Source: Parachlamydiales bacterium (lineage in GTDB: Bacteria > Chlamydiota > Chlamydiia > Chlamydiales > JAFEGQ01). From it: a stretch of DNA of 64,000 nt. Positions 3,324-41,961 of the stretch are shown piece by piece. The position numbers and the translations under genes were made by a program. The stretch covers positions 8,971 through 72,970 of the forward strand of contig JBFWPF010000006.1 in assembly GCA_050250135.1 (NCBI GenBank), in the 5' to 3' direction. Position 1 is the stretch's first letter. The number at the start of each line of letters is the position of its first letter. Under the pieces are notes generated by a model. It did not search any database. It worked only from the letters and a program-made list of their open reading frames with translations, and was not told where the DNA came from.

Positions 3324-6300
3324 CTATTCTTGTAGGGATCGCCATTTCTTGATCATTTGGGCGGCGAGGGGGGCCGCCTCCCTTCCGTAATCCCCATATT
3401 TGAGGTAGACGACCACCACGAGCTCCGGCCTTCCGAAGGTAGTCCCGGTGATCTCCTCCGGCTTAAAAGAGACCCCAGCAAACCAGATATGGTTATAGGT
3501 ATTGGTGCCGGTGAAGGGGTCGAGGTCAACCGTTTCGACCGCCTCGCTAGTGCTGGTTTTCCCCACAATTTGCTTGTAGAGGGCCCGGTAGTCCTGGACG
3601 ATCCAGGGGGCCTCTTGGTAGCTCCGGATCACCGAGGGGCGGGCCCCTCCCTGCTCCCCTTGAACGGCAAGGCGCATCCCCTCCAAGAGCTCACGGCGAA
3701 CGGCGTCGGGGATCTCGAGCTGACGGACCACCTCCGCTTCGCCTTTAAAAATCTGAGGCTTAAAGACCCTCCCCCCGTTCACCAGCGCTGAGAGCATCAC
3801 AGCAGTCTGGAGGGGGGTAACGACGAGGGTATGTTGCCCATCGACATAGGAGTAGAGGCCGGTCCGGTTGGTGGCCAGGTCGTCGGGGAGCCTTCCGGCA
3901 TACTCGCCGGGAAGCTCGATCCCCGTCCGGGCCCCGTAGGAGAGCTGGCGGGCCCGCCGGTTGAGGTCCTCCGGATCCTCGATATGGTCGACCGCCAATA
4001 TGCCAAAGTAGGAATTACTCGAGGTTTCGAGGGCCTTGACGAGGTCGATCTTCCCGACATGGCGCCGGTGGGTCCTGAGGAGCTTCCCCCCTTTGTAGCG
4101 CTGGGAGATCGCTTTACCCTCCAATGTAAAACCAACGTTCCATTGGTTCCCCGTCCCCTTGTGGACATCATCCACCATGGTGAAAGGGCTGATCGGAGCC
4201 GCCCGCCCGGCGAGCTTCTCATGCCGCTGCATCAGAGCCTCAAAGGCGGGGACAAACTTGAAGACCGACCCCTGAATGGTCGCCTGCCGATAAGCATGGG
4301 AGCGGCCATACCCAAAGCCATAGCGGGGATAGAAGGCAGCAGCGAGATCCCGCTCCACCTGATGGCCCGGTTTGCCCCGCAGGTAGCGGTAGTGCCCCCA
4401 CAAAGGGCGGCTCAGCTCGGCAAAGGGGCGGACGGTGGCGAGCCACTCACAGCCGATCGAAAAGGGGTGGGGGGCGAGGAAGGCGCGCAGCTGCTCATAG
4501 GCCCCATGCCACGGCTCCCCCCTGTGGGCCCCCCCTTCAAGCTCCCTCCCAAGGGTAAGCATCAGATCGGCATAGGGGGCAAAATCGGCTTCAATCTCAA
4601 CAGGACCCTCAGGCCCCTTGACCAGCAGGGCCACACAGCTCCACCGCACCCCCTCCCAGAAGGCCCTGAATTGCGCCCGCTCCTCAGCATCGAGATAGTC
4701 CAGGTAGGGATGCTGGTAGCTATGGGCCTCCTCCTCCTGCCGCCGCTTCTCCTTCAGGAAGACCTTCTGATTTTTGGCCCGCCACCGGGCAAACTGATGG
4801 TCGTGGAAAAGCTCGCGGGCATAGCGCCGAAGGGCCCCTTCGAGAACGCAAGCGGACTGACAAAGGGTCCGGTAGTCGGCAAGCGTGGTCTTGCCCACCG
4901 CCTCCATCAGCGAACGAGAGAAGAAGGCGGGATCGACCAACAGCTGACACAGGTCGAGGATAAGGAGCTTCTCGTAGTTGGTGGGGGCGCTCGCTAGGAA
5001 GGGGTCAAAGAGGGATCTTCCCTCAGCTGAGAGTGCCTCGGCAGGGAGGGGCTGATCCCCCTCGCGGTGGTAAAGGCCATTCATCACCCCTCTTGGGTCC
5101 CGCTCCCCTACAAGCTCCCGAAACCTCTCCTGAAGAACCGCCGCCCGCCGGATCGTCCCTACCCTCTCAAGCCCCTTCCGGACCGCCCCCTCCTTGGAGA
5201 GGGCCAGCTCCTCGTAGAACGGGAAGGTGAGGAAACGGCCCTCATCTTCAAACTGCTTGGTCACCACGTTAAAGTTCTCCCGCTCAAGGGGGCGCTTCCC
5301 ATCCCAAATCTCCCCTAAATGGCGGTCGGTCTCAAACCACCGGAGAAGCTGAGAGACCCGCTCCTCCTCTCTCTCCGGGCTGCCCGACGGGATAAAGGTG
5401 TTCGCGTCGGTCCGCGGATAGGAGGCAAGGGCCAGCACCTCACCGCTATTCGGGTCCATCACCACAATCGCCCCCCCCTTTATCCAGGGGTCCTTCAGAC
5501 CCGTGTAAAGCCGCTTTACATAGTCAAACTTATGGCTCCGCCCATCCCGATACCGCTCCGTTTGGGCCAACAGCTCCTCGGCATAGCGCTGGAGCTCAAC
5601 CGAAAGGGCCAACGTGACCGGCTCCCCATGGACCGCCTCGCGCCTTCCTGGCAACTCACTCAAAAACGTTCCATAGATATCCTGCTCAAAAAATGTTTTA
5701 CCGCAGAACCCTCTTAGCCGCTCATCGCATACCTTCTCGATTCCCCCTTTTCCAACCGCATCCTGGAGGGAGTAGGAGCGCTCTTGAAGCTCGGCAAGGC
5801 GCCTCTCCGCCTCCTCGATCGCCGACACCCCCTTAGGCAAGAGAACGGGATCTCCCCGGAGGTAGCCTGCGATGTACTCCTTGAGCACGCGGATCTCGTC
5901 GGCCACCCGGAGGTACTCCTCGCGGCTAATCGGGCCCACATAACCAATCACTTCGGCGGCCACCTTTCCTTGGGGGTAGTCCCGCCGCATCTCCCGCTGG
6001 GCGGTCAGCCCCGGCCACTCCCGCTCGAGCATCCGGAGGCGGTAGTAGGTCTCCTCGGGGAGGTCGGAGCGGATCACATAGGGGACATTCGGAAACAGAG
6101 AGGCCTTGGAGTGGATGAGGTCCTCAATCCGCCCCCTATCCATCTGCAGCTCATCGGCCAGGAGGGTGGCCAGCTTTTCAATATGTTCCTTACGGGCAAA
6201 GTGCTTCTCCCCGCTGCGCTTGACCACCCTCGGAATCTCCCGAATAGGGGCATAGGTGATCGCCACATTGTATTGGACCCGATTGGTGGCGAGGGGGAGG

Positions 6301-6497
6301 TGGAACCGGTCTTCGATGATCCCCCGCTCAGGCTTAAGGGGAACCGCTCGGGTTTGGAAGCGGCGGGCCTCCCCCGTCCTAGCCTCATGCTGCACAACAG
6401 CGACCTGCCAGACCCGGGCGAGAACCAAAACAAAAACGACCAAAATTCCCTTGAGAATTCGGTTGGCCTTTTGGGGGATGGAGGGTTGACGGGTCAT
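3324..6497 (-). CDS. pbp2: Penicillin-binding protein 2 (class B transpeptidase), enlarged chlamydial type
   Basis: 1057 aa with an N-terminal membrane anchor (ILKGILVVFVLVLARVW). Transpeptidase motifs are SxxK (GSVFKFV), SxN (SSNSYF) and KT[GS] (GKTSTS). It is much longer than typical PBP2, as in chlamydial PBP2, and lies next to rpsB as in Chlamydia. Confidence 0.85.
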   Translation of the reverse strand: MTRQPSIPQKANRILKGILVVFVLVLARVWQVAVVQHEARTGEARRFQTRAVPLKPERGIIEDRFHLPLATNRVQYNVAITYAPIREIPRVVKRSGEKHFARKEHIEKLATLLADELQMDRGRIEDLIHSKASLFPNVPYVIRSDLPEETYYRLRMLEREWPGLTAQREMRRDYPQGKVAAEVIGYVGPISREEYLRVADEIRVLKEYIAGYLRGDPVLLPKGVSAIEEAERRLAELQERSYSLQDAVGKGGIEKVCDERLRGFCGKTFFEQDIYGTFLSELPGRREAVHGEPVTLALSVELQRYAEELLAQTERYRDGRSHKFDYVKRLYTGLKDPWIKGGAIVVMDPNSGEVLALASYPRTDANTFIPSGSPEREEERVSQLLRWFETDRHLGEIWDGKRPLERENFNVVTKQFEDEGRFLTFPFYEELALSKEGAVRKGLERVGTIRRAAVLQERFRELVGERDPRGVMNGLYHREGDQPLPAEALSAEGRSLFDPFLASAPTNYEKLLILDLCQLLVDPAFFSRSLMEAVGKTTLADYRTLCQSACVLEGALRRYARELFHDHQFARWRAKNQKVFLKEKRRQEEEAHSYQHPYLDYLDAEERAQFRAFWEGVRWSCVALLVKGPEGPVEIEADFAPYADLMLTLGRELEGGAHRGEPWHGAYEQLRAFLAPHPFSIGCEWLATVRPFAELSRPLWGHYRYLRGKPGHQVERDLAAAFYPRYGFGYGRSHAYRQATIQGSVFKFVPAFEALMQRHEKLAGRAAPISPFTMVDDVHKGTGNQWNVGFTLEGKAISQRYKGGKLLRTHRRHVGKIDLVKALETSSNSYFGILAVDHIEDPEDLNRRARQLSYGARTGIELPGEYAGRLPDDLATNRTGLYSYVDGQHTLVVTPLQTAVMLSALVNGGRVFKPQIFKGEAEVVRQLEIPDAVRRELLEGMRLAVQGEQGGARPSVIRSYQEAPWIVQDYRALYKQIVGKTSTSEAVETVDLDPFTGTNTYNHIWFAGVSFKPEEITGTTFGRPELVVVVYLKYGDYGREAAPLAAQMIKKWRSLQE

Positions 6498-6593
6498 AGT
6501 CTAGAGATTAGGGAGTTCCCCCTGTTTTCTGAAAGCTAGGAACTTGAGGGAAATCCCTCATCAAGGCTATCTTCGGTAGGCAACAGTACGTCA

Positions 6594-6729
6594 TTAGAAA
6601 GTTATCACAGGCGGCCTCTTAGCGAATCGGGCCAGATTGTTGAAGTCGCGACGAAGCCCATAGCCAAAGCGCTATGGGTGAGAAGCGAGATCAGCAAGAG
6701 GACGACGCCATAACCTTTTAAGGGCGTAC
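6594..6729 (+). repeat. Repeat family 2, copy a (136 bp), ending 7 nt upstream of tRNA-Gly
   Basis: It aligns along its length with 10015-10167: TTAGAAAGTTA..GCGGCCTCTTAGCGAATCG.G.CAGATTGTTGA.GTCGCGACGAAGCCCATAGCC....GCGCTATGGGTGAG.AGCGAG...CAGCAAGAGGACG.CGCCATAA..TTTTAAGGGCGTAC. It contains a conserved hairpin CCCATAGC/GCTATGGG with a variable loop. Confidence 0.8.
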
Positions 6730-6736
6730 GGGAAAT

Positions 6737-6807
6737 GCGCCTGTAGTTCAATGGTAGAACAGTAGCCTTCCAAGCTACGAGTGTCAGTTCGATTCTGATC
6801 AGGCGCT
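6737..6807 (+). tRNA. tRNA-Gly (anticodon UCC)
   Basis: A 71-nt cloverleaf folded by hand. Acceptor stem is GCGCCTG/CAGGCGC, anticodon stem GTAGC/GCTAC with loop CTTCCAA, and T-arm GTCAG-TTCGATT-CTGAT. Confidence 0.9.
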
Positions 6808-6877
6808 AACTTTTTAACAACCAAGGCCGAAATCTCCACTTAGTGGGGATGCCGTAGTCAGCAAGGAGGGACAAGGC

Positions 6878-7618
6878 TTGGAACAGACCGTAAAACTTAA
6901 AACTACACTTAAAGAACTTCTTGAGGCCGCCGCTCACTTCGGCCACCGGACCGACCGGTGGAACCCGAAGATGAAGCGCTTTATTTTTGAAGAGCGCAAT
7001 GGGCTCTACATCATCGACCTTTCGAAAACGATGGAGCAGCTCCGAGCAGCTGTCCAGATCGTTCGGAAGGTAGTCGCGAGTAAAAAATCGGTCCTTTTCG
7101 TGGGCACCAAAAAGCAGGCCAAAGGGGTGATCCAAGAGGCGGCTGAGCGGTGTGGCGAATTCTACGTCTCTGAGCGGTGGCTCGGCGGCATGCTGACCAA
7201 CCTCTCAACGCTCCGCCAGTCGGTTAAGAAACTCGACCGGATCGAAAAAGAGATCGGGACCGAAGCCGAAGCGCGCACCAAGAAGGAGCTAGCCCACATG
7301 ACCAAGCTCCAACTCAAATTGGAGCGGAACCTCTCGGGTATCCGCAATATGCGAAAAACGCCGGGTCTTGTGATCGTTGTCGACCCAAGCAAGGAGCATA
7401 TCGCCGTTGCTGAGGCGCGGAAGCTGAATATCCCCGTCATGGCGCTGATCGACACTAACTGCGATCCCGATCCGATCGATTACATCATCGCCTGTAACGA
7501 CGATGCGCTGAAGAGCATTAAGCTGATTGTCGACGAATTGGCCGAAGTGATTATCGACGAGAAAGGGAAGGTAAAAGGGTCGGCGAAAGGGGAAGTCAAA
7601 GAGGGGGAAGAGGCATGA
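6878..7618 (+). CDS. rpsB: 30S ribosomal protein S2
   Basis: 246 aa (LLEAAAHFGHRTDRWNPKMKRFIFEERNGLYIIDL). It has a TTG start 8 nt after an AAGGAGG ribosome-binding site at 6863-6869. Confidence 0.95.
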   Translation: MEQTVKLKTTLKELLEAAAHFGHRTDRWNPKMKRFIFEERNGLYIIDLSKTMEQLRAAVQIVRKVVASKKSVLFVGTKKQAKGVIQEAAERCGEFYVSERWLGGMLTNLSTLRQSVKKLDRIEKEIGTEAEARTKKELAHMTKLQLKLERNLSGIRNMRKTPGLVIVVDPSKEHIAVAEARKLNIPVMALIDTNCDPDPIDYIIACNDDALKSIKLIVDELAEVIIDEKGKVKGSAKGEVKEGEEA

Positions 7619-8457
7619 ACATCACACCCGAAATGGTTAAAGAGCTAAGGCGGCGGACCGGCATCGGCGTCGGCAAGTGCAAAGAGGCACTTGTAGAGGC
7701 GGGCGGGGACATCGAAACTGCGATCGCCAACCTCCGCAAGGCGGGCATGGCCTCAGCTGTGAAGAAAGAGGGGCGCGAGATTAAAGAGGGGATGATCGCC
7801 CACGCCAAAGGGAAGAGCGCCATTGCCGTCGTCGAAATCGGTGCTGAGACCGACTTTGTCGTCCAAAATGAGCGGTTCCAGGCCTTTGCCAAAGAGGTCG
7901 CTCAGGTAGCGGCCGACCAGGCAATCGACAGCCTCGAAACCCTGATCAAGGCCCGTTCGACGAGCGACCCTTCGATGACGCTCGATGAGCTTCGCGCCTC
8001 AACGATTCAGAGCCTCGGCGAGAACATCCAGATCAGCCGGATCAAGCTCCACAAAGTCGCCTCAGGGCACTCGGTGGCCATCTACTCCCACATGGGAGGG
8101 AAGATCGTGACCGTGATCGACCTCAAAGGGAGTGACCAGGAGGAGGCGCTTGCCAGAGAGGTGGCGATGCACGCGGCCGCTGAAGCGCCCGAGTACCTGA
8201 CACCCGATGAGATCCCTGCCGATGTCAAAGCAAAGGAAGAGGAGATCGCTCGAGGACAAATCCAAAACAAACCGCGCGAGATCCAGGACAAGATCGTCCA
8301 AGGAAAGCTCGAGGCCTTTTATGCCCAGGTCTGCTTACCTCGGCAGAAGTTTGTTAAAGACCCGAGCGTCACCATCCAACAGCTGATCGAAAAGCGGGCT
8401 AAGGAGGGCGGCAAGCCCCTCTCGCTGGCTGGGTTTATCCGCTGGTCGATCGAGTAA
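7615..8457 (+). CDS. tsf: Elongation factor Ts
   Basis: 280 aa with an N-terminal UBA-like EF-Ts motif (ITPEMVKELRRRTGIGVGKCKEALVEAGGDIETAI). An ATGA overlap links it to rpsB. Confidence 0.95.
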   Translation: MNITPEMVKELRRRTGIGVGKCKEALVEAGGDIETAIANLRKAGMASAVKKEGREIKEGMIAHAKGKSAIAVVEIGAETDFVVQNERFQAFAKEVAQVAADQAIDSLETLIKARSTSDPSMTLDELRASTIQSLGENIQISRIKLHKVASGHSVAIYSHMGGKIVTVIDLKGSDQEEALAREVAMHAAAEAPEYLTPDEIPADVKAKEEEIARGQIQNKPREIQDKIVQGKLEAFYAQVCLPRQKFVKDPSVTIQQLIEKRAKEGGKPLSLAGFIRWSIE

Positions 8458-9158
8458 TGGGTCGCCGCCGGATCCTCCTCAAGCTCTCAGGTGAAGCCCT
8501 CATGGGGCAAAAGGGGTTTGGGGTCGATCCGGATTATCTCACCTCCATCGCAGCCACCCTGAAAGGGATCCAGCAAAAGGGGATCCAGATTGGGGTGGTG
8601 ATTGGAGGGGGGAATATCTTCCGGGGGATCCAACGGGACACCTTCGGAATGGAGCGGGCCCCCGCTGACCATATCGGGATGCTCGCCACCGTAATCAACG
8701 GGATCGCCCTCCAGCAGGCCCTCCGGCAACAGGGGGCTCCCTGCCGCGTGATGAGCGCCCTCGGGGAGACCGACATCGTGGAGCCCTTCATCTGGGATGT
8801 CGCCCTCCGCTACCTCGACTCGGGCGCCATCGTCCTCTTTGTAGGAGGGACAGGCAACCCCTTTTTCACGACCGACACCTCCGCTGCGCTAAGGGCCGCC
8901 CAGATCAACGCCGACCTCCTCCTGAAGGCCACCAATGTCGATGGGGTCTACGATCGGGATCCCAAAGGGGATCCAAGCGCCCGCCGCTACGACCGCCTCA
9001 CCTACCACGAGGCTCTCCAGATGGAGCTACGGGTGATGGACGCCGCCGCTATCTCCATTTGCCGGGATAACGGGATTCCGATTAAAGTATTTGCGGTATC
9101 CTCCCTTGAGCGGGGGATTATGGAGGAAACTTTTGGAACAATGATCACCTCAGGATAG
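8457..9158 (+). CDS. pyrH: UMP kinase
   Basis: 233 aa with amino-acid kinase fold motifs (ILLKLSGEALMG ... VVIGGGNIFRG ... VGGTGNPFFTTDTSAALRA). Confidence 0.95.
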   Translation: MGRRRILLKLSGEALMGQKGFGVDPDYLTSIAATLKGIQQKGIQIGVVIGGGNIFRGIQRDTFGMERAPADHIGMLATVINGIALQQALRQQGAPCRVMSALGETDIVEPFIWDVALRYLDSGAIVLFVGGTGNPFFTTDTSAALRAAQINADLLLKATNVDGVYDRDPKGDPSARRYDRLTYHEALQMELRVMDAAAISICRDNGIPIKVFAVSSLERGIMEETFGTMITSG

Positions 9159-9161
9159 ATC

Positions 9162-9713
9162 ATGGGCATACAAGACCAGACAAAAAAAGAGATGACACAG
9201 GCCCTTACCCACCTCGAGACCGACCTCAAGGGGATTCGGACAGGGCGAGCTAACCCCTCCCTGCTGGACAGCGTTACGGCTGAGGTCTATGGGAGCCAGA
9301 TGCGGCTCAGGGATGTGGCCAACGTGACCGCCCCCGAGGCTCAACAGCTCCTGGTCACCCCCTTTGACGCCCATAACACCAACACGATTGGTAAGGCGAT
9401 TGAGCGGGCCAACCTCGGCATGCAGGTGGTTATCGAGGGGAACCTGATCCGGATCTTGGTCCCCCCCATGGATAAGGCGGTCCGCCAGGAGATGGTGAAG
9501 CAGTGTAAGCGGAAAGGGGAGGAGGCCAAGGTCTCCATCCGGAATATCCGGCGCAAGTACAACGACCTTGTCCGCAAGCAGAAGGCCGATGGGGAGATCA
9601 CAGAGGATGTGGTCAAGCGGGAGGAGAAGGGGATCCAGACCCTTACCGACGACTTTTGCGCTAAGGCCGATGCCCTAACCGCCGCCAAGGAAAAAGAGGT
9701 GATGGTTATTTGA
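9162..9713 (+). CDS. frr: Ribosome recycling factor
   Basis: 183 aa with a typical RRF sequence (LKGIRTGRANPSLLDSVTAEVYGSQMRLRDVANVT ... SIRNIRRKYND). Confidence 0.95.
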   Translation: MGIQDQTKKEMTQALTHLETDLKGIRTGRANPSLLDSVTAEVYGSQMRLRDVANVTAPEAQQLLVTPFDAHNTNTIGKAIERANLGMQVVIEGNLIRILVPPMDKAVRQEMVKQCKRKGEEAKVSIRNIRRKYNDLVRKQKADGEITEDVVKREEKGIQTLTDDFCAKADALTAAKEKEVMVI

Positions 9714-9757
9714 TCCTTGTGGCAAATAGCCTACCTAGGCTATGCTAGCCGCACGCT

Positions 9758-9832
9758 GGCCCCATCGTCTAGCCAGGTCTAGGACATCGGATTTTCATTC
9801 CGGTAACAGGGGTTCGAATCCCCTTGGGGTCA
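9758..9832 (+). tRNA. tRNA-Glu (anticodon UUC)
   Basis: A 75-nt cloverleaf. Acceptor stem is GGCCCCA/TGGGGTC, the D-arm GTCT...GGAC resembles E. coli tRNA-Glu, the anticodon loop is TTTTCAT, and the T-arm is AGGGG-TTCGAAT-CCCCT. Confidence 0.9.
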
Positions 9833-9855
9833 ACTTTTGCTTAGTTGCGATTTAT

Positions 9856-9888
9856 CCCCCCTTCAAGGACGATAGGTCACAACCCAAG
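9856..9888 (+). repeat. Degenerate solo right arm of the 159-bp element family, 24 nt after tRNA-Glu
   Basis: CCCCCCTTCAAGGACGATAGGTCACAA matches the right-arm consensus CCCTCAGGACGATAGGTCRCAATCAGGGGT over its core and then diverges. Confidence 0.55.
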
Positions 9889-9908
9889 CATCAGGCCATC
9901 TTGGCTGT

Positions 9909-9981
9909 GGGTCCTTAGCTCAGTTGGTAGAGCACCTCACTTTTAATGAGGCCGTCGATGGTTCGAGTCCATCAGGACCCA
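9909..9981 (+). tRNA. tRNA-Lys (anticodon UUU)
   Basis: A 73-nt cloverleaf. Acceptor stem is GGGTCCT/AGGACCC, D-arm GCTC-AGTTGGTA-GAGC, anticodon stem CCTCA/TGAGG with loop CTTTTAA, and T-arm GATGG-TTCGAGT-CCATC. Confidence 0.92.
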
Positions 9982-9985
9982 AATT

Positions 9986-10015
9986 CCCCCTGGACGATAG
10001 GTCACAATCAGGGGT
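9986..10015 (+). repeat. Solo right arm of the 159-bp element family, 4 nt after tRNA-Lys and fused to repeat family 2 copy b
   Basis: CCCCCTGGACGATAGGTCACAATCAGGGGT is near-identical to the right-hand (plus-strand) terminus of the copy at 13583-13741 (CCCCTCGGGACGATAGGTCACAATCAGGGGT). No matching left arm lies nearby. Confidence 0.75.
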
Positions 10016-10167
10016 TAGAAAGTTAAGGCAAGCGGCCTCTTAGCGAATCGAGACAGATTGTTGAGGTCGCGACGAAGCCCATAGCCGCTGCGCTATGGGT
10101 GAGGAGCGAGCTCAATAGGATGGCCGATGCAGCAAGAGGACGGCGCCATAATTTTTTAAGGGCGTAC
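10015..10167 (+). repeat. Repeat family 2, copy b (153 bp)
   Basis: It aligns with 6594-6729 and carries an insertion of about 17-21 bp (CTCAATAGGATGGCCGATG). It has the same hairpin stem CCCATAGC/GCTATGGG but a different loop (CGCTGC versus CAAAGC). Confidence 0.8.
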
Positions 10168-13000: not shown

Positions 13001-13537
13001 TTACATATCGTAGCGGCCGTGGTCCCCTTGGCGGGGGACCTTGTTGATCAGCACATTGACCATATCGGCCCAGCGGTGTTGACGGGCATAGGGCTCAATG
13101 AGCTTATAATCGACCCCCACTTGGTCTGAAAACCGCTGAAGCATCTCTGGGGTGAGGTTATTCCGATTGGACTCCTCCTCCAAACTCGCCACAAGCCCCT
13201 CCAAAAACTCTTTCCAGAGCTTTCCATTCTGCTTGCGCAGGTTGCGGATCCCTACCTTGAGGTCCTCTTGAGTGAGAATGTAGGCAAGAAACGGGAGGGG
13301 GTGGACAGGGCCGATCCGGTCACCGGCCTTATTCAGGGCGGTGACATAGGGAAGGATGGTGAGGGGGTTGTTAGCCGCTAGGGTGAGGACGATGTAGCGG
13401 ATATCTTGCTTGTCTTGCGTGGTGAGTTCGGCGTAGAAGTTCCGAGGGGCGGAGGTCCGCCGATCGGCGGCAAGGGGAAGGGTGAAAAGAAGGAGGAGGA
13501 GAAGCGCTTTACGCATGGGATCCGGTTTTTGGCCCAT
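13001..13537 (-). CDS. Hypothetical secreted protein
   Basis: A 178-aa ORF. A more likely start is the internal Met at 13516, giving MRKALLLLLLFTLPLAAD, a classical signal peptide. No domain was recognised. Confidence 0.6.
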   Translation of the reverse strand: MGQKPDPMRKALLLLLLFTLPLAADRRTSAPRNFYAELTTQDKQDIRYIVLTLAANNPLTILPYVTALNKAGDRIGPVHPLPFLAYILTQEDLKVGIRNLRKQNGKLWKEFLEGLVASLEEESNRNNLTPEMLQRFSDQVGVDYKLIEPYARQHRWADMVNVLINKVPRQGDHGRYDM

Positions 13538-13582: not shown

Positions 13583-13741
13583 ACCCCTGATTGCAACCTC
13601 TAGTCCTGAGGGCATTGACAGTGGGCGACCATCTGGAGCACATCTCTTCTCAACCGGGTTTTCAAACCCGGCCTCGCCGCGATATGCTCCATCTGACTAC
13701 CCCCTGCCGCCCCCTCGGGACGATAGGTCACAATCAGGGGT
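13583..13741 (-). repeat. 159-bp long-hairpin (MITE-like) element, copy A, inverted relative to copies B and C
   Basis: The termini are ACCCCTGATTGCAACCTCTAGTCCTGAGGG ... CCCTCGGGACGATAGGTCACAATCAGGGGT, with a central hairpin AACCGGGTTTTCAAACCCGG. Its reverse complement aligns end to end with 41803-41961 and 52271-52429. It sits between divergent genes. Confidence 0.85.
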
Positions 13742-13778: not shown

Positions 13779-14549
13779 ATGCGCCTCCTCCTTACCCTCC
13801 TCCTTTTCCCTTTGGTCCTCTTTGCTGAGCGGCCCGACTGGTGCAAGCCGCAGCGTTTCTACGCCAGTTTCGAAAGCGCCTACCTAAGCCGCGATCGAGC
13901 GGGAGGCTCATGGCAAGAGGGGATCCTCTTCGGAGGCCACATCGGCTGGGATCGGGTGAAATTTAAGGGCTTCTATTGGGGCATCGACGCCTACTACTTG
14001 ACCGGAACGCTCATGGGACAAGCCTCAAGTGGTTGCTACGCCGAATCGGCCATGCAGGTCAACGAGGTGGAGGGGCGGCTGGGATGGACCTTCTGCCTCC
14101 CGTGGCGCTGGTCACCGACGGTAACGCCGTTTGTGGGCTACGGCTACTACCACGAGAGTAACCGGTTTCACGCCAACTGCCCTTGGCAGGTTCGCTTCCG
14201 GGCCTACTACGACGACCTGGTGCTCGGTTTTCTCTCAAGTGTCAACCCCTGCTCGACCTATTCCATCGGGCTTAACATCAAAGTAGGGCTCATTAGGCAG
14301 GGACATAACCGGATCTCCGAAGACCCCATGGCAAACCCCGTTTCGCAACGGACGGGAGATCGGCCCCAGTATACGGTCGAGTTGCCCTTGACCCTCTACC
14401 CCTGCCGGAAGTGTCGCTGCCTGGAAATTGCGGTCGTTCCCTTCTACCGACTCCGCCACTTCGGAGGGCGGGAAAACTACCCCTTCGATTTCTTTGAGAC
14501 CCGCCTCTCCTTTTACGGGGCGCGGGCTGAGCTGGGGATCCGCTGGTAG
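13779..14549 (+). CDS. Putative cysteine-rich outer-membrane beta-barrel protein
   Basis: 256 aa with a signal peptide (MRLLLTLLLFPLVLFA). It has alternating aromatic/hydrophilic strand-like segments, a C-terminal aromatic residue (...ELGIRW), and 8 Cys residues. Confidence 0.5.
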   Translation: MRLLLTLLLFPLVLFAERPDWCKPQRFYASFESAYLSRDRAGGSWQEGILFGGHIGWDRVKFKGFYWGIDAYYLTGTLMGQASSGCYAESAMQVNEVEGRLGWTFCLPWRWSPTVTPFVGYGYYHESNRFHANCPWQVRFRAYYDDLVLGFLSSVNPCSTYSIGLNIKVGLIRQGHNRISEDPMANPVSQRTGDRPQYTVELPLTLYPCRKCRCLEIAVVPFYRLRHFGGRENYPFDFFETRLSFYGARAELGIRW

Positions 14550-40133: not shown

Positions 40134-41801
40134 GTGCGCCGGTCGATATTCTCCTCCTTTGCCTTTCTGAACGCGACCCAGTTTCTGGGAGCGCTGAACG
40201 ACAATATCTTCCGTCTCACCACCGTCTTTCTCGGAATCGGTCTTTTAGGTGAAGGGAAGACCAACTTGATCGTTCTGATCGCCGGCGCCTTCTTTGTCGC
40301 CCCCTTTATCCTCTTCTCCCTCCCCTCAGGAACCTTGGCCGACCGGATCAGCAAACGGACGATACTCGTTGCCATGAAGGGGGCCGAGGTGATTATCATG
40401 GCCCTGGGGATGGCCTCCTTCTATTACCAGACTCTCTGGGGCGCCTACGCCGTCCTTTTCCTCATGGCCGCCCAGAGCGCCGTTTTTGGCCCCGCCAAAT
40501 ATGGGATCGTTCCTGAACTCGTCAGCCGTGAAAAGATCGCGATTGCCAACGGTATACTCACAGGCGCCACCGTCATCGCCACCATTCTCGGCGTCCTCCT
40601 TGCCTCCCTCCTCACCGATCTCACCCACCGGAACCTCGTTCTCGTCGGCGCCTTCTGCACAGCCGTTGCCCTCCTCGGTCTCTTCACCAGCCTCGCCATC
40701 GAAAAGACACCGCCCGCCGGCTCAACGAGCAAAATCAACGCCCACCTCTTCTCCCAGATCCTCCGTGTGATGAAACGGGCCCGCGGCGAGAACTACCTCT
40801 TCACCTCGATCCTCGGGAGCGCCTACTTCTACCTCATCGGCTCCTTTGTCCAGCTCAACAGCCTCCCCTTCACCATCGAAAACCTCGGCCTCACCGACGT
40901 CCAGAGCGGCTACCTCTTTTCAGTCGCCGCCCTTGGCATCGCCGTCGGCGCCTTCCTCGCCGGTAAACTCTCCGGCCGCTACGTCGAGCTCGGCCTCTCC
41001 CCTATCACCGGCCTCATCCTGGGCCTCTTTTTCTGCTTCACTGAGCTTGGCGCCGGCAGCATCATCGCCGCCATCCTCCTTCTCGCCTTCCTCGGCGGCC
41101 TAGGCGGGATGTTCCTGGTCCCATTCGATGCCTACACCCAATCGGCTAGCCTCGACCACGAGCGGGGAGAAAACGTCTCGGCTGCCAACTTCCTCGCCTT
41201 TATCGGCGTCCTCCTCTCGGTTGGCCTCTTCTACCTCTCTTCGACCCTCTTCCACCTCTCCTCTATCGGCTCCTTCCGCGTCATGGGGATCGTCACCATC
41301 GCCATCTCCCTCTCCCTCTCCCTCCGCCTTACCGACACCTTTGTTCGCCTTGCCGCTCGCCTCCTCCATTTCCGCCCTGCCCACCGCCAAATTCAGGGGG
41401 CCGACAAGATCAGCCACCACCACCCCACCCTCTTCCTTTGCTCCACCCCTACTCCCGAAGCTGGCCTCCTCTTTATGATTATCCTTCAGCAGCGCTACAT
41501 GCGCCTAGTCATTGAGGAGCCCGAGAAGCCCTCCCCTCTTTTCCGTTTTGTCTGCCGCCTAGCCAAGGTCGGCTTCTACCAAGGGGCGATCACCCCCGGC
41601 GGCCCAGTCGGCCCAAAGGCGGCTCTCTGGCTGAAGCGGGGCTATTCGGTTGCTCTCCTCCCCCGCAAACCCGAATCGATCAGCCTAGCGTCTCTAGCGC
41701 AAACCCTTGCTAAGGAGCGCCACGTCGACCTTCTCCACATCCGTCTCACCGCCAAAGGGCCGGGCCGATGGGCCCCCCCTATGCGGGCCGTGATTAGCTG
41801 A
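40134..41801 (+). CDS. MFS transporter, lysophospholipid transporter (LplT)-like, with a C-terminal acyltransferase-like extension
   Basis: 555 aa with a GTG start. The N-terminus FLNATQFLGALNDNIFRL is typical of LplT, and there are about 12 TM segments. The last ~150 aa are soluble and resemble a PlsC-type fold, but I cannot find the HX4D motif. Confidence 0.7.
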   Translation: MRRSIFSSFAFLNATQFLGALNDNIFRLTTVFLGIGLLGEGKTNLIVLIAGAFFVAPFILFSLPSGTLADRISKRTILVAMKGAEVIIMALGMASFYYQTLWGAYAVLFLMAAQSAVFGPAKYGIVPELVSREKIAIANGILTGATVIATILGVLLASLLTDLTHRNLVLVGAFCTAVALLGLFTSLAIEKTPPAGSTSKINAHLFSQILRVMKRARGENYLFTSILGSAYFYLIGSFVQLNSLPFTIENLGLTDVQSGYLFSVAALGIAVGAFLAGKLSGRYVELGLSPITGLILGLFFCFTELGAGSIIAAILLLAFLGGLGGMFLVPFDAYTQSASLDHERGENVSAANFLAFIGVLLSVGLFYLSSTLFHLSSIGSFRVMGIVTIAISLSLSLRLTDTFVRLAARLLHFRPAHRQIQGADKISHHHPTLFLCSTPTPEAGLLFMIILQQRYMRLVIEEPEKPSPLFRFVCRLAKVGFYQGAITPGGPVGPKAALWLKRGYSVALLPRKPESISLASLAQTLAKERHVDLLHIRLTAKGPGRWAPPMRAVIS

Positions 41802-41802
41802 T

Positions 41803-41961
41803 ACCCCTGATTGCGACCTATCGTCTTGAGGGGGCGGCAGGGGGTGGCAAGATGGTGTACATCGTGACGAGGCAGGGTTTATCAACCCGGGTGAGGAGGG
41901 ATGTCCTCCAGATGGCCACCCTCTGTCGATGCCCTCAGGACGATAGGTCGCAATCAGGGGT
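41803..41961 (+). repeat. 159-bp long-hairpin (MITE-like) element, copy B
   Basis: Arms are ACCCCTGATTGCGACCTATCGTCTTGAGGG ... CCCTCAGGACGATAGGTCGCAATCAGGGGT (29 Watson-Crick pairs plus 1 G.U out of 30). It starts 2 nt after the TGA of the upstream gene and ends 20 nt before the stop of the convergent porin gene. Confidence 0.9.

What the first reader, a model, noticed from the sequence alone, without database searches (positions are those of the whole stretch)
13583..13741. Family of 159-bp long-hairpin (MITE-like) elements that I cannot place in a named repeat or ncRNA family
Three copies of exactly 159 bp occur at 13583-13741 (inverted), 41803-41961 and 52271-52429.

- **Arms:** each starts ACCCCTGATTGnnACCTATCGTCCTGAGGG and ends with its reverse complement CCCTCAGGACGATAGGTnnCAATCAGGGGT. 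The 30-nt arms are 30/30 complementary in the 52-kb copy.
- **Centre:** each carries a central hairpin CCGGGTTT-(GT/GA)-AAACCCGG.
- **Interior:** the sequence between arm and centre is also partly self-complementary (e.g. CAGAGGGTAGTCA with TGACTGCCCACTG), so the whole unit can fold into one imperfect hairpin of about 75 bp.

All copies are intergenic and no transposase is in the window. The size and long terminal inverted repeats recall Correia, ERIC or Nezha-type MITEs, but the sequence is not one I recognise. I am not aware of such elements being described in Chlamydiota.
Basis: seen in the sequence. Interest (0 to 1): 0.7.

Follow-up and report, generated by a model that had tools for sequence, protein, structure and literature searches.

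The report
Hairpin mini-transposon family in environmental chlamydiae
The three 159-bp palindromic repeats are real copies of a small, non-coding jumping-DNA family (a MITE) that has spread between the housekeeping genes of an uncultured chlamydia-like bacterium; it is a new family of a well-known kind of element, not a new kind of system.

Summary
Three 159-bp copies sit at the stated coordinates, 84-85% identical, with 30-nt terminal inverted repeats and whole-length hairpin potential (z about -14).

The window (an NCBI 'Parachlamydiales bacterium' MAG) also holds:
- a solo arm at 9986-10015;
- a degenerate mini-copy at 9838-9890;
- two copies of a sister family, 'F', at 6595-6720 and 10016-10158.

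About nine further copies, in several subfamilies with related but different termini, occur in five chlamydia-like metagenome contigs.

Evidence for mobility:
- One copy is inserted inside another, flanked by a duplicated TTA. Two more copies carry perfect TTA duplications.
- The sites of E52, E41 and F6, and the tRNA-Glu/Lys spacer, are empty in the relatives examined (one to two each).
- No transposase was found in the window or in the loci.
- Rfam gives nothing.

The stems covary: 36 of 51 pairs changed on both sides. Three tandem G·A mismatch motifs are conserved in every subfamily, so some single-stranded form (RNA or ssDNA) is probably under selection.

Verdict: this is a new MITE family, Correia/ERIC/bcr1-like, mobilised in trans by an unidentified transposase. 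A 3-bp TTA duplication suggests an IS5/PIF-Harbinger-type enzyme. Interest is moderate.

The parts
52271..52429 (+). E52: full 159-bp element, the best-preserved copy. TIRs are 52271-52300 and 52400-52429. Tandem-GA 'AGAT' motifs are at 52318-52321 and 52378-52381. The apical double tandem-GA is GACGA 52334-52338 opposite GAGGA 52361-52365. The apical hairpin is 52341-52358.
   Evidence: It is an insertion relative to L012 and L013, where the ORF stop and tRNA-Pro are 6-7 nt apart. It supplies part of the TGA of the conserved 81-aa ORF.
41803..41961 (+). E41: full 159-bp element, 1 nt after the stop codon of the MFS transporter gene (40134-41801), between convergent genes. Its apical hairpin is degenerate.
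   Evidence: The ortholog of the MFS gene in GCA_021772495.1 (L014) has no element downstream.
13583..13741 (-). E13: full 159-bp element, inverted, in the divergent spacer between ORFs 13001-13537(-) and 13779-14549(+). It is the most decayed of the three (5' arm 2 mismatches, 9 G-U pairs).
9986..10015 (+). Solo 3' arm (CCCCCTGGACGATAGGTCACAATCAGGGGT), 3 nt after tRNA-Lys. The rest of the element is missing.
   Evidence: (D6). The independent Logan assembly contig L008 ends exactly at the end of this arm, as expected at a multi-copy repeat.
9838..9890 (-). Degenerate, internally deleted mini-copy in the tRNA-Glu/tRNA-Lys spacer. It contains GACGATAGGTCACAA.
   Evidence: 15 bits, E = 0.05. The spacer is 73 nt here against 8-11 nt in relatives L010 and L011.
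6595..6720 (+). F6: sister-family hairpin (extended unit about 6574-6729), just upstream of tRNA-Gly. It has the same apical module (TCGC-GACGAAG-hairpin-TGAGAA-GCGA) with different basal arms, and a 17-nt deletion relative to F10.
   Evidence: (D4). It is absent from the orthologous PBP2/tRNA-Gly spacer of GCA_021772495.1 (90 nt against 239 nt).
10016..10158 (+). F10: sister-family hairpin (shared unit extends to 10167, AGGGCGTAC), directly after the solo E arm and upstream of mcsA.
   Evidence: (-69.5 kcal/mol, z = -6.9).

Best explanation
**What it is.** These are copies of a non-autonomous, fold-back DNA transposon: a MITE of the Correia/ERIC/bcr1 type, found in environmental Chlamydiota.

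**Anatomy.** Each unit has about 25-30-bp terminal inverted repeats with a shared core ([G/A]ACC..TTGC..CCTATC). Its interior pairs along its whole length, so one strand can form a hairpin of about 75 bp. The helix is interrupted by three conserved tandem G·A/A·G motifs: AGAU opposite AGAU, and GA(C/U)GA opposite GA(G/A)GA around a covarying Watson-Crick pair.

**How it moves.**
- Shown: copies insert into chromosomal DNA at TTA/TAA-containing sites, often at the very end of genes or beside tRNA genes. At least some insertions duplicate 3 bp (TTA).
- Shown: the family has diversified into subfamilies and into 95-bp internally deleted forms.
- Inferred: a transposase encoded elsewhere recognises the termini and mobilises the element in trans. 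A 3-bp TTA/TAA duplication is the signature of IS5-family (IS1031-type) and PIF/Harbinger 'Tourist' elements, from my own knowledge of those families, so that is the most likely enzyme class.
- Inferred: the conserved single-strand features mean a folded single strand matters. The likeliest form is a read-through RNA hairpin in the 3' or 5' untranslated regions of flanking genes, acting as a stabiliser or RNase III target as in Correia, ERIC and bcr1. A folded strand during transposition is the less likely form.
- The elements carry no sigma-70-type promoter or intrinsic terminator of their own.
For: **Repeat family is real.**

**Same termini, length and architecture in other chlamydia-like contigs** from metagenomes Ga0180437 and Ga0180438.; gene content.

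**Nested insertion.** In L003 1780-2094, a B-type copy at 1810-1968 interrupts a C-type copy, with TTA on both sides. Removing the insert and one TTA restores a 153-nt element that folds as a full hairpin. The partner arm (TCCTAAG) shows that the target CTTAGGA held a single TTA.

**Further duplications.** There are perfect TTA/TTA flanks at L003 4289-4383 and L003 10791-10949. The right flank is TTA, at offset 0-1, for E13, E41 and E52.

**Empty sites.**
- E52: L012 and L013.
- F6: L009.
- tRNA-Glu/Lys spacer: L010 and L011.
- E41: L014.

**Covariation over 9 copies of 3 subfamilies**.
- 91.9% of cells are paired, against 75.8% in shuffles and about 42% when the partners are slid.
- 36 of 51 pairs changed on both sides; 0 of 500 shuffles reached this.

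**Apical module.** It is shared by all subfamilies, including F. The middle pair of the double tandem-GA covaries (C-G x10, U-A x3, none broken).

**Mismatch census.** G·A 95, G·T 64, A·C 33, all other types together 72.

**Strand asymmetry.** The forward strand folds 10-22 kcal/mol better than the reverse in all 9 full copies.

**Short forms.** The 95-nt forms arise by deletion between CGAAG direct repeats.

**Negative searches.**
- No promoter or terminator inside the elements.
- No transposase among 43 window ORFs and 30 locus ORFs.
- No Rfam family.
Against: - No autonomous IS with the same termini was found. The enzyme class therefore rests only on the length and sequence of the duplication.
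- None of the three window copies has an intact duplication. Left flanks are CCA, TGA/GAT and TCT/CTG; right flanks are TTA.
- Only 3 of about 11 copies have a perfect duplication.
- An element that carries TTA at one end and inserts next to a TTA (IS200/IS605 style) would look the same in the nested case.
- Conservation of the tandem G·A motifs and the strand asymmetry are not needed by a transposase that recognises double-stranded ends, so something is missing from the simple MITE picture.
- The RNA reading is weak. The five window copies are all co-oriented with flanking transcription, but the metagenome copies are mixed: about 3 co-oriented, 4 antisense and 2 ambiguous.
- Among private (single-copy) mismatches, G·U and A·C are about equal (8 against 6).
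- All copies seen are old. No two distinct copies are more than about 85% identical, so current activity is not shown.
- Copy number in the whole genome is unknown.
Confidence: 0.75

Rival explanations
1. It is a single-strand (HUH/tyrosine transposase) element of the REPIN/RAYT or IS200/IS605 'PATE' type. The whole-length hairpin forms in ssDNA, for example on the lagging-strand template. A Y1 transposase recognises it and inserts it next to a TTA without a true duplication.
For: - The hairpin spans the whole element, and compensatory changes occur even in the interior.
- Strand-specific features are conserved: G·A mismatches would be C·T on the other strand.
- The forward strand folds better even with DNA parameters, -58.1 against -51.6 kcal/mol.
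- The arms contain CGTC, which recalls the CGTC-tagged REPs of PMC3733652.
- Most copies lack a clean duplication.
Against: - The most conserved part is the terminal 23 nt, which is nearly identical between a 60%-GC and a roughly 45%-GC host. This is typical of double-strand TIR recognition.
- The arms are not consistently self-palindromic REP units.
- Three copies have identical TTA (or TAA) on both sides, in either orientation relative to the element. This is what a staggered cut gives.
- No RAYT/TnpA-like ORF was seen in about 110 kb examined.
Confidence: 0.1
2. It is a multi-copy structured non-coding RNA gene or cis-regulatory RNA (for example a protein-binding hairpin with kink-turn or box C/D-like GA motifs), kept by the host for RNA function. 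Its spread is only incidental.
For: - Covariation is strong, and the loops are more conserved than the stems.
- GA(C/U)GA...GA(G/A)GA resembles box C (RUGAUGA) / box D (CUGA) and tandem-GA protein-binding motifs (resemblance from memory).
- G-U pairs are enriched in the window copies, 22 against 4 A·C.
- All five window copies are co-oriented with neighbouring genes.
- Four window copies or remnants sit beside tRNA genes.
Against: - No promoter or terminator signal.
- No Rfam family.
- Absent from the orthologous sites of the relatives examined, so no locus-specific function is conserved.
- Orientation is mixed in the metagenome copies.
- There is a nested insertion, plus truncated and internally deleted copies.
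- The bulge geometry does not fit a canonical 3-nt-bulge kink-turn in all subfamilies (sequence reading).
Confidence: 0.08
3. It is a local segmental triplication or chance palindromes, not a dispersed family.
For: None beyond the small number of copies in one window.
Against: - 0 matches expected by chance against 7 found.
- Copies occur in other organisms' contigs.
- The flanks of the copies are unrelated.
- A Logan contig breaks at an arm end.
Confidence: 0.01

Closest known systems
Correia repeat-enclosed elements (CREE/nemis) of Neisseria
   Same: Both are about 155-bp non-coding units with 26-30-bp terminal inverted repeats. In both, the whole element can fold into one RNA hairpin. Both have a long form and a form shortened by about 50-65 bp through internal deletion (here 159 against 95 nt). 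Both sit at gene ends and in intergenic spacers, are co-transcribed with neighbours, and have no known parent IS. Correia properties are as summarised in PMC2649163 and PMC2229807 and from my own knowledge.
   Different: There is no sequence relationship. Correia duplicates TA, whereas here the duplication is TTA. Correia carries an IHF site and promoter-forming ends, and no promoter-like sites were found here. The conserved tandem G·A motifs are not a described Correia feature. The host phylum differs.
ERIC/IRU (Enterobacteria) and bcr1 (Bacillus cereus group) long-hairpin MITEs
   Same: Both are 127-155-bp imperfect palindromes dispersed in intergenic, transcribed regions. Both are predicted to form stable RNA hairpins. 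Their effect on mRNA depends on orientation (own knowledge).
   Different: The sequences are unrelated, and the duplications differ (bcr1 TTTAT). No expression data exist here.
Tourist-type MITEs / PIF-Harbinger and bacterial IS5-family (IS1031/IS427/ISL2 groups)
   Same: Both have a 3-bp TTA/TAA (TNA) target duplication. The termini are of the general form G-[G/A]-C-C-..-T-T-T/G-G (own knowledge of these families; not tested with a tool).
   Different: No IS5/PIF-type transposase was found linked to these termini. The similarity of the termini is recalled from memory, not measured.
Rickettsia palindromic elements (RPE) and Coxiella QMITEs
   Same: These are also palindromic mini-repeats that have expanded in obligate intracellular bacteria, some of them amoeba-associated. 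They are often found without an identifiable transposase (PMC1458961; PMC10969869).
   Different: RPEs often insert in frame within protein-coding genes and lack clear TIR/TSD. The elements here stay outside ORFs, at most supplying or abutting stop codons. There is no sequence similarity.
REPIN/REP-RAYT systems
   Same: Both consist of two inverted conserved ends that fold into a long hairpin. Folding is strand-specific. They occur in high copy number in intergenic DNA.
   Different: The arms here are not self-palindromic REPs. A TTA duplication is present. No RAYT gene was seen.

Membership tests
Bacterial MITE (generic definition) | Small (about 50-800 bp) and non-coding | tested here: met
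   Units are 95-161 bp. No conserved ORF or start codon runs across copies (sequence reading).
Bacterial MITE (generic definition) | Terminal inverted repeats | tested here: met
   Arms are 30-31 nt and 84-100% complementary. The arms of subfamilies A, B and C are alignable.
Bacterial MITE (generic definition) | Target-site duplication | tested here: inconclusive
   Three metagenome copies have a perfect TTA/TAA duplication, one of them a nested insertion. It is absent or decayed in the three window copies and in most others.
Bacterial MITE (generic definition) | Multiple dispersed copies; presence/absence between related genomes | tested here: met
   The window holds 3 full copies, 2 remnants and 2 F copies. 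About 9 copies lie in about 44 kb of metagenome loci. Empty orthologous sites are shown.
Bacterial MITE (generic definition) | An autonomous IS with matching termini that supplies the transposase | tested here: not met
   None was found in the window, in the loci, or among exact-terminus matches in GTDB representative genomes, JGI metagenomes or IMG/VR. ISfinder and the rest of this MAG could not be searched, so absence is not established.
Any Rfam 15 RNA family | Covariance-model score at or above the family's gathering threshold | tested here: not met
   Only the 6 tRNAs pass. Nothing overlaps the elements at E <= 5. On the element alone, the best hits are miRNA-precursor models at 26-30 bits against thresholds of 79-83.
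Correia / ERIC / bcr1 (named families) | Sequence homology to the family consensus | not tested
   No reference sequences were available in the tools. Recalled consensus termini differ, and the duplication is TA or TTTAT rather than TTA. The comparison is one of mechanism only.
REP/REPIN-RAYT | Each end is a short self-palindromic REP (GTAG/CGTC-tagged); a RAYT gene is in the genome; no duplication | tested here: not met
   The arms fold weakly and inconsistently on their own (-3.7 to -9.8 kcal/mol, with different pairings). A TTA duplication was seen. No RAYT was found in the sequence examined, although the genome is not fully available.
Kink-turn / box C/D-like RNA motif | C-stem, 3-nt bulge, then tandem sheared G·A/A·G, in a consistent register | tested here: inconclusive
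   Tandem GA steps are conserved. In several copies the two strands of the loop are of equal length (for example E52, 9 x 9), giving a continuous helix with two tandem-GA steps rather than a 3-nt bulge. There is no structural or protein-binding test.

The most novel reading that the evidence does not exclude
The hairpin is more than transposon baggage. The three tandem G·A motifs include a double one around a covarying pair, and they are conserved across subfamilies whose termini and stems have all changed. On this reading they mark a specific protein-recognised single-stranded structure. That would make the family one of two things:

- a hairpin-dependent mobile element using a folded ssDNA or RNA intermediate, which would be a transposition mode not described for TIR/TSD elements; or
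- a mobile RNA regulatory module that chlamydiae have recruited at gene ends and tRNA loci.
Probability: 0.15. Interest if true: 0.7.

Novelty: new member of a known kind. Interest (0 to 1): 0.4.

Why it matters
**What it adds.**
- MITEs have not been described in Chlamydiota in the literature I could search.
- It adds a further case of mini-transposon expansion in an obligate intracellular lineage, alongside Rickettsia RPEs, Coxiella QMITEs and the Cardinium MITE.
- Here the element has inserted at gene ends and tRNA loci of core housekeeping operons. In one case it supplies part of a stop codon without changing the protein's length.

**Practical consequences.**
- The repeats break short-read assemblies of these MAGs.
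- They could serve as strain markers.

**Why the conserved motifs are worth a follow-up.** The tandem G·A motifs, together with abundant covariation, give a clean and testable handle on a general question: why do long-hairpin MITEs keep their fold? The candidates are a transposition intermediate and an RNA function.

Tried and rejected
**Searches that found nothing useful**
- Rfam, in three runs (gathering, whole-window E-value, and element-only E-value): nothing.
- Exact-terminus scan of GTDB representative genomes: one chance hit inside a Verrucomicrobiota coding region, which is not an element.
- IMG/VR: none.
- PLSDB plasmids, with an A-type and a B-type copy: no meaningful hit.
- A strict descriptor for the apical module, and an nhmmer profile of the arms, over all held sequence: no copies beyond those already known, and none in the relatives' loci L009-L014.
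- Transposase search by Pfam in the window and the metagenome loci: none.
- The Cardinium MITE and Amoebophilus IS papers were checked for matching termini: nothing usable.

**Ideas considered and dropped**
- Orientation rule. I first thought the elements were always co-oriented with transcription (5 of 5 in the window). The metagenome copies did not bear this out.
- G-U bias. I first read the excess of G-U over A-C as strong evidence for RNA (41 against 7 from MFE folds). A direct census gives only 64 against 33, and private mismatches are about equal.
- Coding or Shine-Dalgarno reading of AAGGAG...ATG inside the metagenome copies: the start codon is not conserved.
- Integron attC-like and canonical kink-turn readings: considered from sequence only and not supported.
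- TA or TTAA duplications: tried on all copies, and they fit worse than TTA.

Full report

Yes. The three stretches at 13583-13741 (inverted), 41803-41961 and 52271-52429 are each 159 bp and align without gaps at 84-85% identity. The 30-nt arm pattern, allowing up to 3 mismatches, occurs 7 times in the window against 0.00 expected from shuffles.

The arms are 31/31 complementary in E52, 97% in E41 and 84% in E13. As RNA, E52 folds into a single hairpin of -114.4 kcal/mol, against -56.9 +/- 4.2 for shuffles.

Small corrections:
- The perfect CCGGGTTT..AAACCCGG centre is present in only two of the three copies.
- The elements are intergenic but abut genes very tightly.

**2. What else is in the window?**

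The seventh arm match is a solo 3' arm at 9986-10015, 3 nt after tRNA-Lys. A degenerate mini-copy lies at 9838-9890 in the tRNA-Glu/tRNA-Lys spacer.

A second repeat family, which I call F, has two copies at 79-83% identity: 6595-6720 just before tRNA-Gly, and 10016-10158 just after the solo arm. It has different basal arms but the same apical module as E: stem, GACGAAG, GC-rich hairpin, TGAGGA, stem.

E52 ends 5 nt before tRNA-Pro.

**3. Which organism?**

The window carries rpsB-tsf-pyrH-frr, mcsAB, PBP2, sufBC, tyrP, mreC, rpoD, recBCD, thrS and recA. Its S2 protein is 100% identical to 'MAG: Parachlamydiales bacterium', on a contig of 73,564 bp.

G+C is about 60%. None of the 43 ORFs scanned is a transposase, reverse transcriptase or integrase.

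**4. Is it a dispersed family?**

An exact scan for the 23-nt terminus gave these results:
- GTDB representative genomes: only a chance coding-region hit.
- IMG/VR: nothing.
- JGI metagenomes: five contigs from Ga0180437 and Ga0180438.

The five contigs carry chlamydia-type genes: a CT398-like gene, dapF-clpP-glyA, DUF4116, ankyrin/HEAT proteins and tyrP. They have a much lower G+C.

A covariance model built from six copies then found more. In all there are about nine elements in about 44 kb of distinct sequence. They fall into subfamilies:

| Subfamily | Terminus |
|---|---|
| A | ACCCCTGATTGYNACCTATCGTC |
| B | GACCCTAATTGC..CCTATCTC |
| C | AACCTA(A/TA)GTTGCG.CCTAT |
| Fourth type | 5' arm only |

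Lengths are 159-161 nt, with 95-nt forms that lack the centre. The short A and B forms both look like deletions between CGAAG direct repeats.

Between the 60%-GC window and the low-GC contigs, the terminal 23 nt are nearly identical. The interior has diverged beyond BLAST detection yet keeps the same length and fold.

**5. Is it mobile?**

Three lines of evidence say yes.

(a) *Nested insertion.* In L003 1780-2094, a B-type copy (1810-1968) sits inside a C-type copy, flanked by TTA on both sides. Deleting the insert and one TTA restores a 153-nt element that folds end to end. Its 3' half (TCCTAAG) shows that the target CTTAGGA held one TTA.

(b) *Other duplications.* Two further copies have perfect TTA/TTA flanks. 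The right flank of E13, E41 and E52 reads TTA at offset 0-1.

(c) *Empty sites.*

| Site | Relative(s) | Observation |
|---|---|---|
| E52 | GCA_021772495.1 (rpsB 84% identical); a marine-sediment contig | The conserved 81-aa ORF (90% identical, same length) ends TAG. It is followed by TTACTA or TTTTTTT, then tRNA-Pro. In the window the 159-bp element lies between them and supplies part of the TGA. |
| F6 | GCA_021772495.1 | The PBP2/tRNA-Gly spacer is 90 nt against 239 nt in the window. |
| Mini-copy | Two relatives (L010, L011) | tRNA-Glu and tRNA-Lys are 8-11 nt apart against 73 nt. |
| E41 | GCA_021772495.1 | The MFS ortholog has no element after its stop. |

An independent Logan assembly of the same organism breaks exactly at the end of the solo arm. 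This is what a multi-copy repeat does to a de Bruijn graph.

The window copies themselves show no intact duplication. At about 15% divergence they are old.

**6. Structure and what is conserved.**

Over nine full copies from three subfamilies:
- 91.9% of cells in the 51-pair consensus hairpin are paired, against 75.8% after shuffling and about 42% when the partners are slid.
- 36 pairs have changed on both sides; 0 of 500 shuffles reach this.

The most conserved interior positions are not in the stems. They lie in three purine-purine mismatch motifs:
- AGAU opposite AGAU (A-U, G·A, A·G, U-A).
- GA(C/U)GA opposite GA(G/A)GA below the apical hairpin. This gives two tandem G·A steps around a pair that covaries: C-G in 10 sequences, U-A in 3, never broken.

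G·A is by far the commonest mismatch: 95, against 72 for all non-transition types together. On the opposite strand these mismatches would be C·T. All nine full copies accordingly fold 10-22 kcal/mol better in one orientation. The asymmetry persists with DNA parameters.

G·T exceeds A·C by 64 to 33 overall and by 22 to 4 in the window copies. Among mismatches private to one copy, however, the two are about equal. The bias therefore belongs to the ancestral or master sequences rather than to each insertion.

**7. RNA or DNA?**

This is not settled. In favour of RNA:
- The five window copies all point the same way as the neighbouring genes.
- The copies sit where they would be read through.

Against RNA:
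- The metagenome copies point both ways.
- There is no promoter or terminator signal inside the element.

Tandem G·A steps and G·T pairs are tolerated in DNA hairpins too. What is clear is that a constraint acts on one strand as a folded molecule, and a transposase recognising double-stranded termini does not explain that.

**8. Most likely mechanism.**

It is a non-autonomous fold-back transposon mobilised in trans. Insertion into TTA/TAA-containing sites with a 3-bp duplication is shown. The enzyme class is inferred only from that signature, which I know as typical of IS5-family (IS1031-type) and PIF/Harbinger 'Tourist' elements. No parent IS was found.

The preference for TTA/TAA would explain why copies pile up at stop codons and in the AT-richer spacers around tRNA genes in a 60%-GC genome. 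After insertion, the hairpin would be part of neighbouring transcripts, as with Correia, ERIC and bcr1. Any stabilising or RNase III-dependent effect is inferred, not shown.

The main rivals are set out in the Rival explanations section with what would refute them:
- an ssDNA/HUH-type palindromic element;
- a host-maintained structured RNA.

**9. Comparison with what is known.**

In how it works, the closest match is the Correia/ERIC/bcr1 class of long-hairpin MITEs. Like Correia it has long and short forms, and no known parent IS. In its duplication, the closest match is Tourist/IS5.

It is not a member of any Rfam family. Membership in the named MITE families could not be tested by sequence, and the recalled termini and duplications differ.

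Searches of the paper library for MITEs in chlamydiae found nothing relevant. A 2024 survey and a 2024 review of prokaryotic MITEs do not mention chlamydiae in their main text.

**10. Verdict.**

This is a real, dispersed, demonstrably mobile mini-element family in environmental Chlamydiota. It is a new family of a known kind. The conserved tandem-GA hairpin architecture is the one feature that goes beyond the ordinary and deserves an experiment.

Noticed in passing
window 6574-6729 and 9995-10167: The two F copies share more than the hairpin. They also share a right flank (AGGGCGTAC) and, on the left, an E-type 3' arm: intact at 9986-10015, and barely recognisable at 6574-6594. In F6 the sequence GTACGTCAT...AGGGCGTAC forms a further outer inverted repeat that F10 lacks. 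It is unresolved whether F inserted next to an E arm and the composite was then copied, or whether the arm-like stretch in F6 is chance.
   Followed up: partly
window 52026-52271: There is a conserved 81-aa ORF of unknown function with no Pfam hit. It is 90% identical to, and the same length as, its counterpart in GCA_021772495.1, and it is also present in a marine-sediment contig. It always lies between an EamA transporter gene and tRNA-Pro. In the window its stop codon TGA straddles the junction with E52.
   Followed up: partly
window 6737-6807, 9757-9982, 52435-52509; L004 1201-1276: Four of the seven element copies or remnants in the window lie within 15 nt of a tRNA gene, and one metagenome copy lies about 220 nt from tRNA-His. 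This may reflect only AT-rich TTA targets around tRNA genes in a GC-rich genome. A real tRNA-proximal preference was not excluded.
   Followed up: partly
window 62879-63282 (inside ORF 62666-63559, minus strand): There are in-frame tandem repeats with periods of 51 and 72 nt (87-96% matches, about 2-3 copies each), so the predicted protein has a repetitive core. This is unrelated to the hairpin elements.
   Followed up: no
whole window: G+C is 54-62% (about 60% overall), which to my knowledge is well above that of cultured Chlamydiota. The cumulative GC skew falls steadily from about 20 kb to 64 kb, so the + strand is probably the lagging-strand template there.
   Followed up: no
L008 (Logan SRR27751816 contig, 3236 bp) against window 6780-10015: A second, independent assembly of the same organism yields only a 3.2-kb contig here. 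It starts inside tRNA-Gly and ends at the last base of the solo E arm. The repeats fragment short-read assemblies of this genome.
   Followed up: yes
L003 4286-4383: A 95-nt short element is wedged exactly between two convergent genes. The plus-strand gene ends in TAA immediately before the element. The minus-strand gene runs 8 nt into the element and uses a TAA inside its arm as its stop codon.
   Followed up: partly
window 3324-6497 (minus strand): The PBP2-type penicillin-binding protein is 1057 aa. Its dimerisation domain (residues 54-211) and its transpeptidase domain (803-1010) are separated by about 590 residues that match no Pfam family.
   Followed up: no
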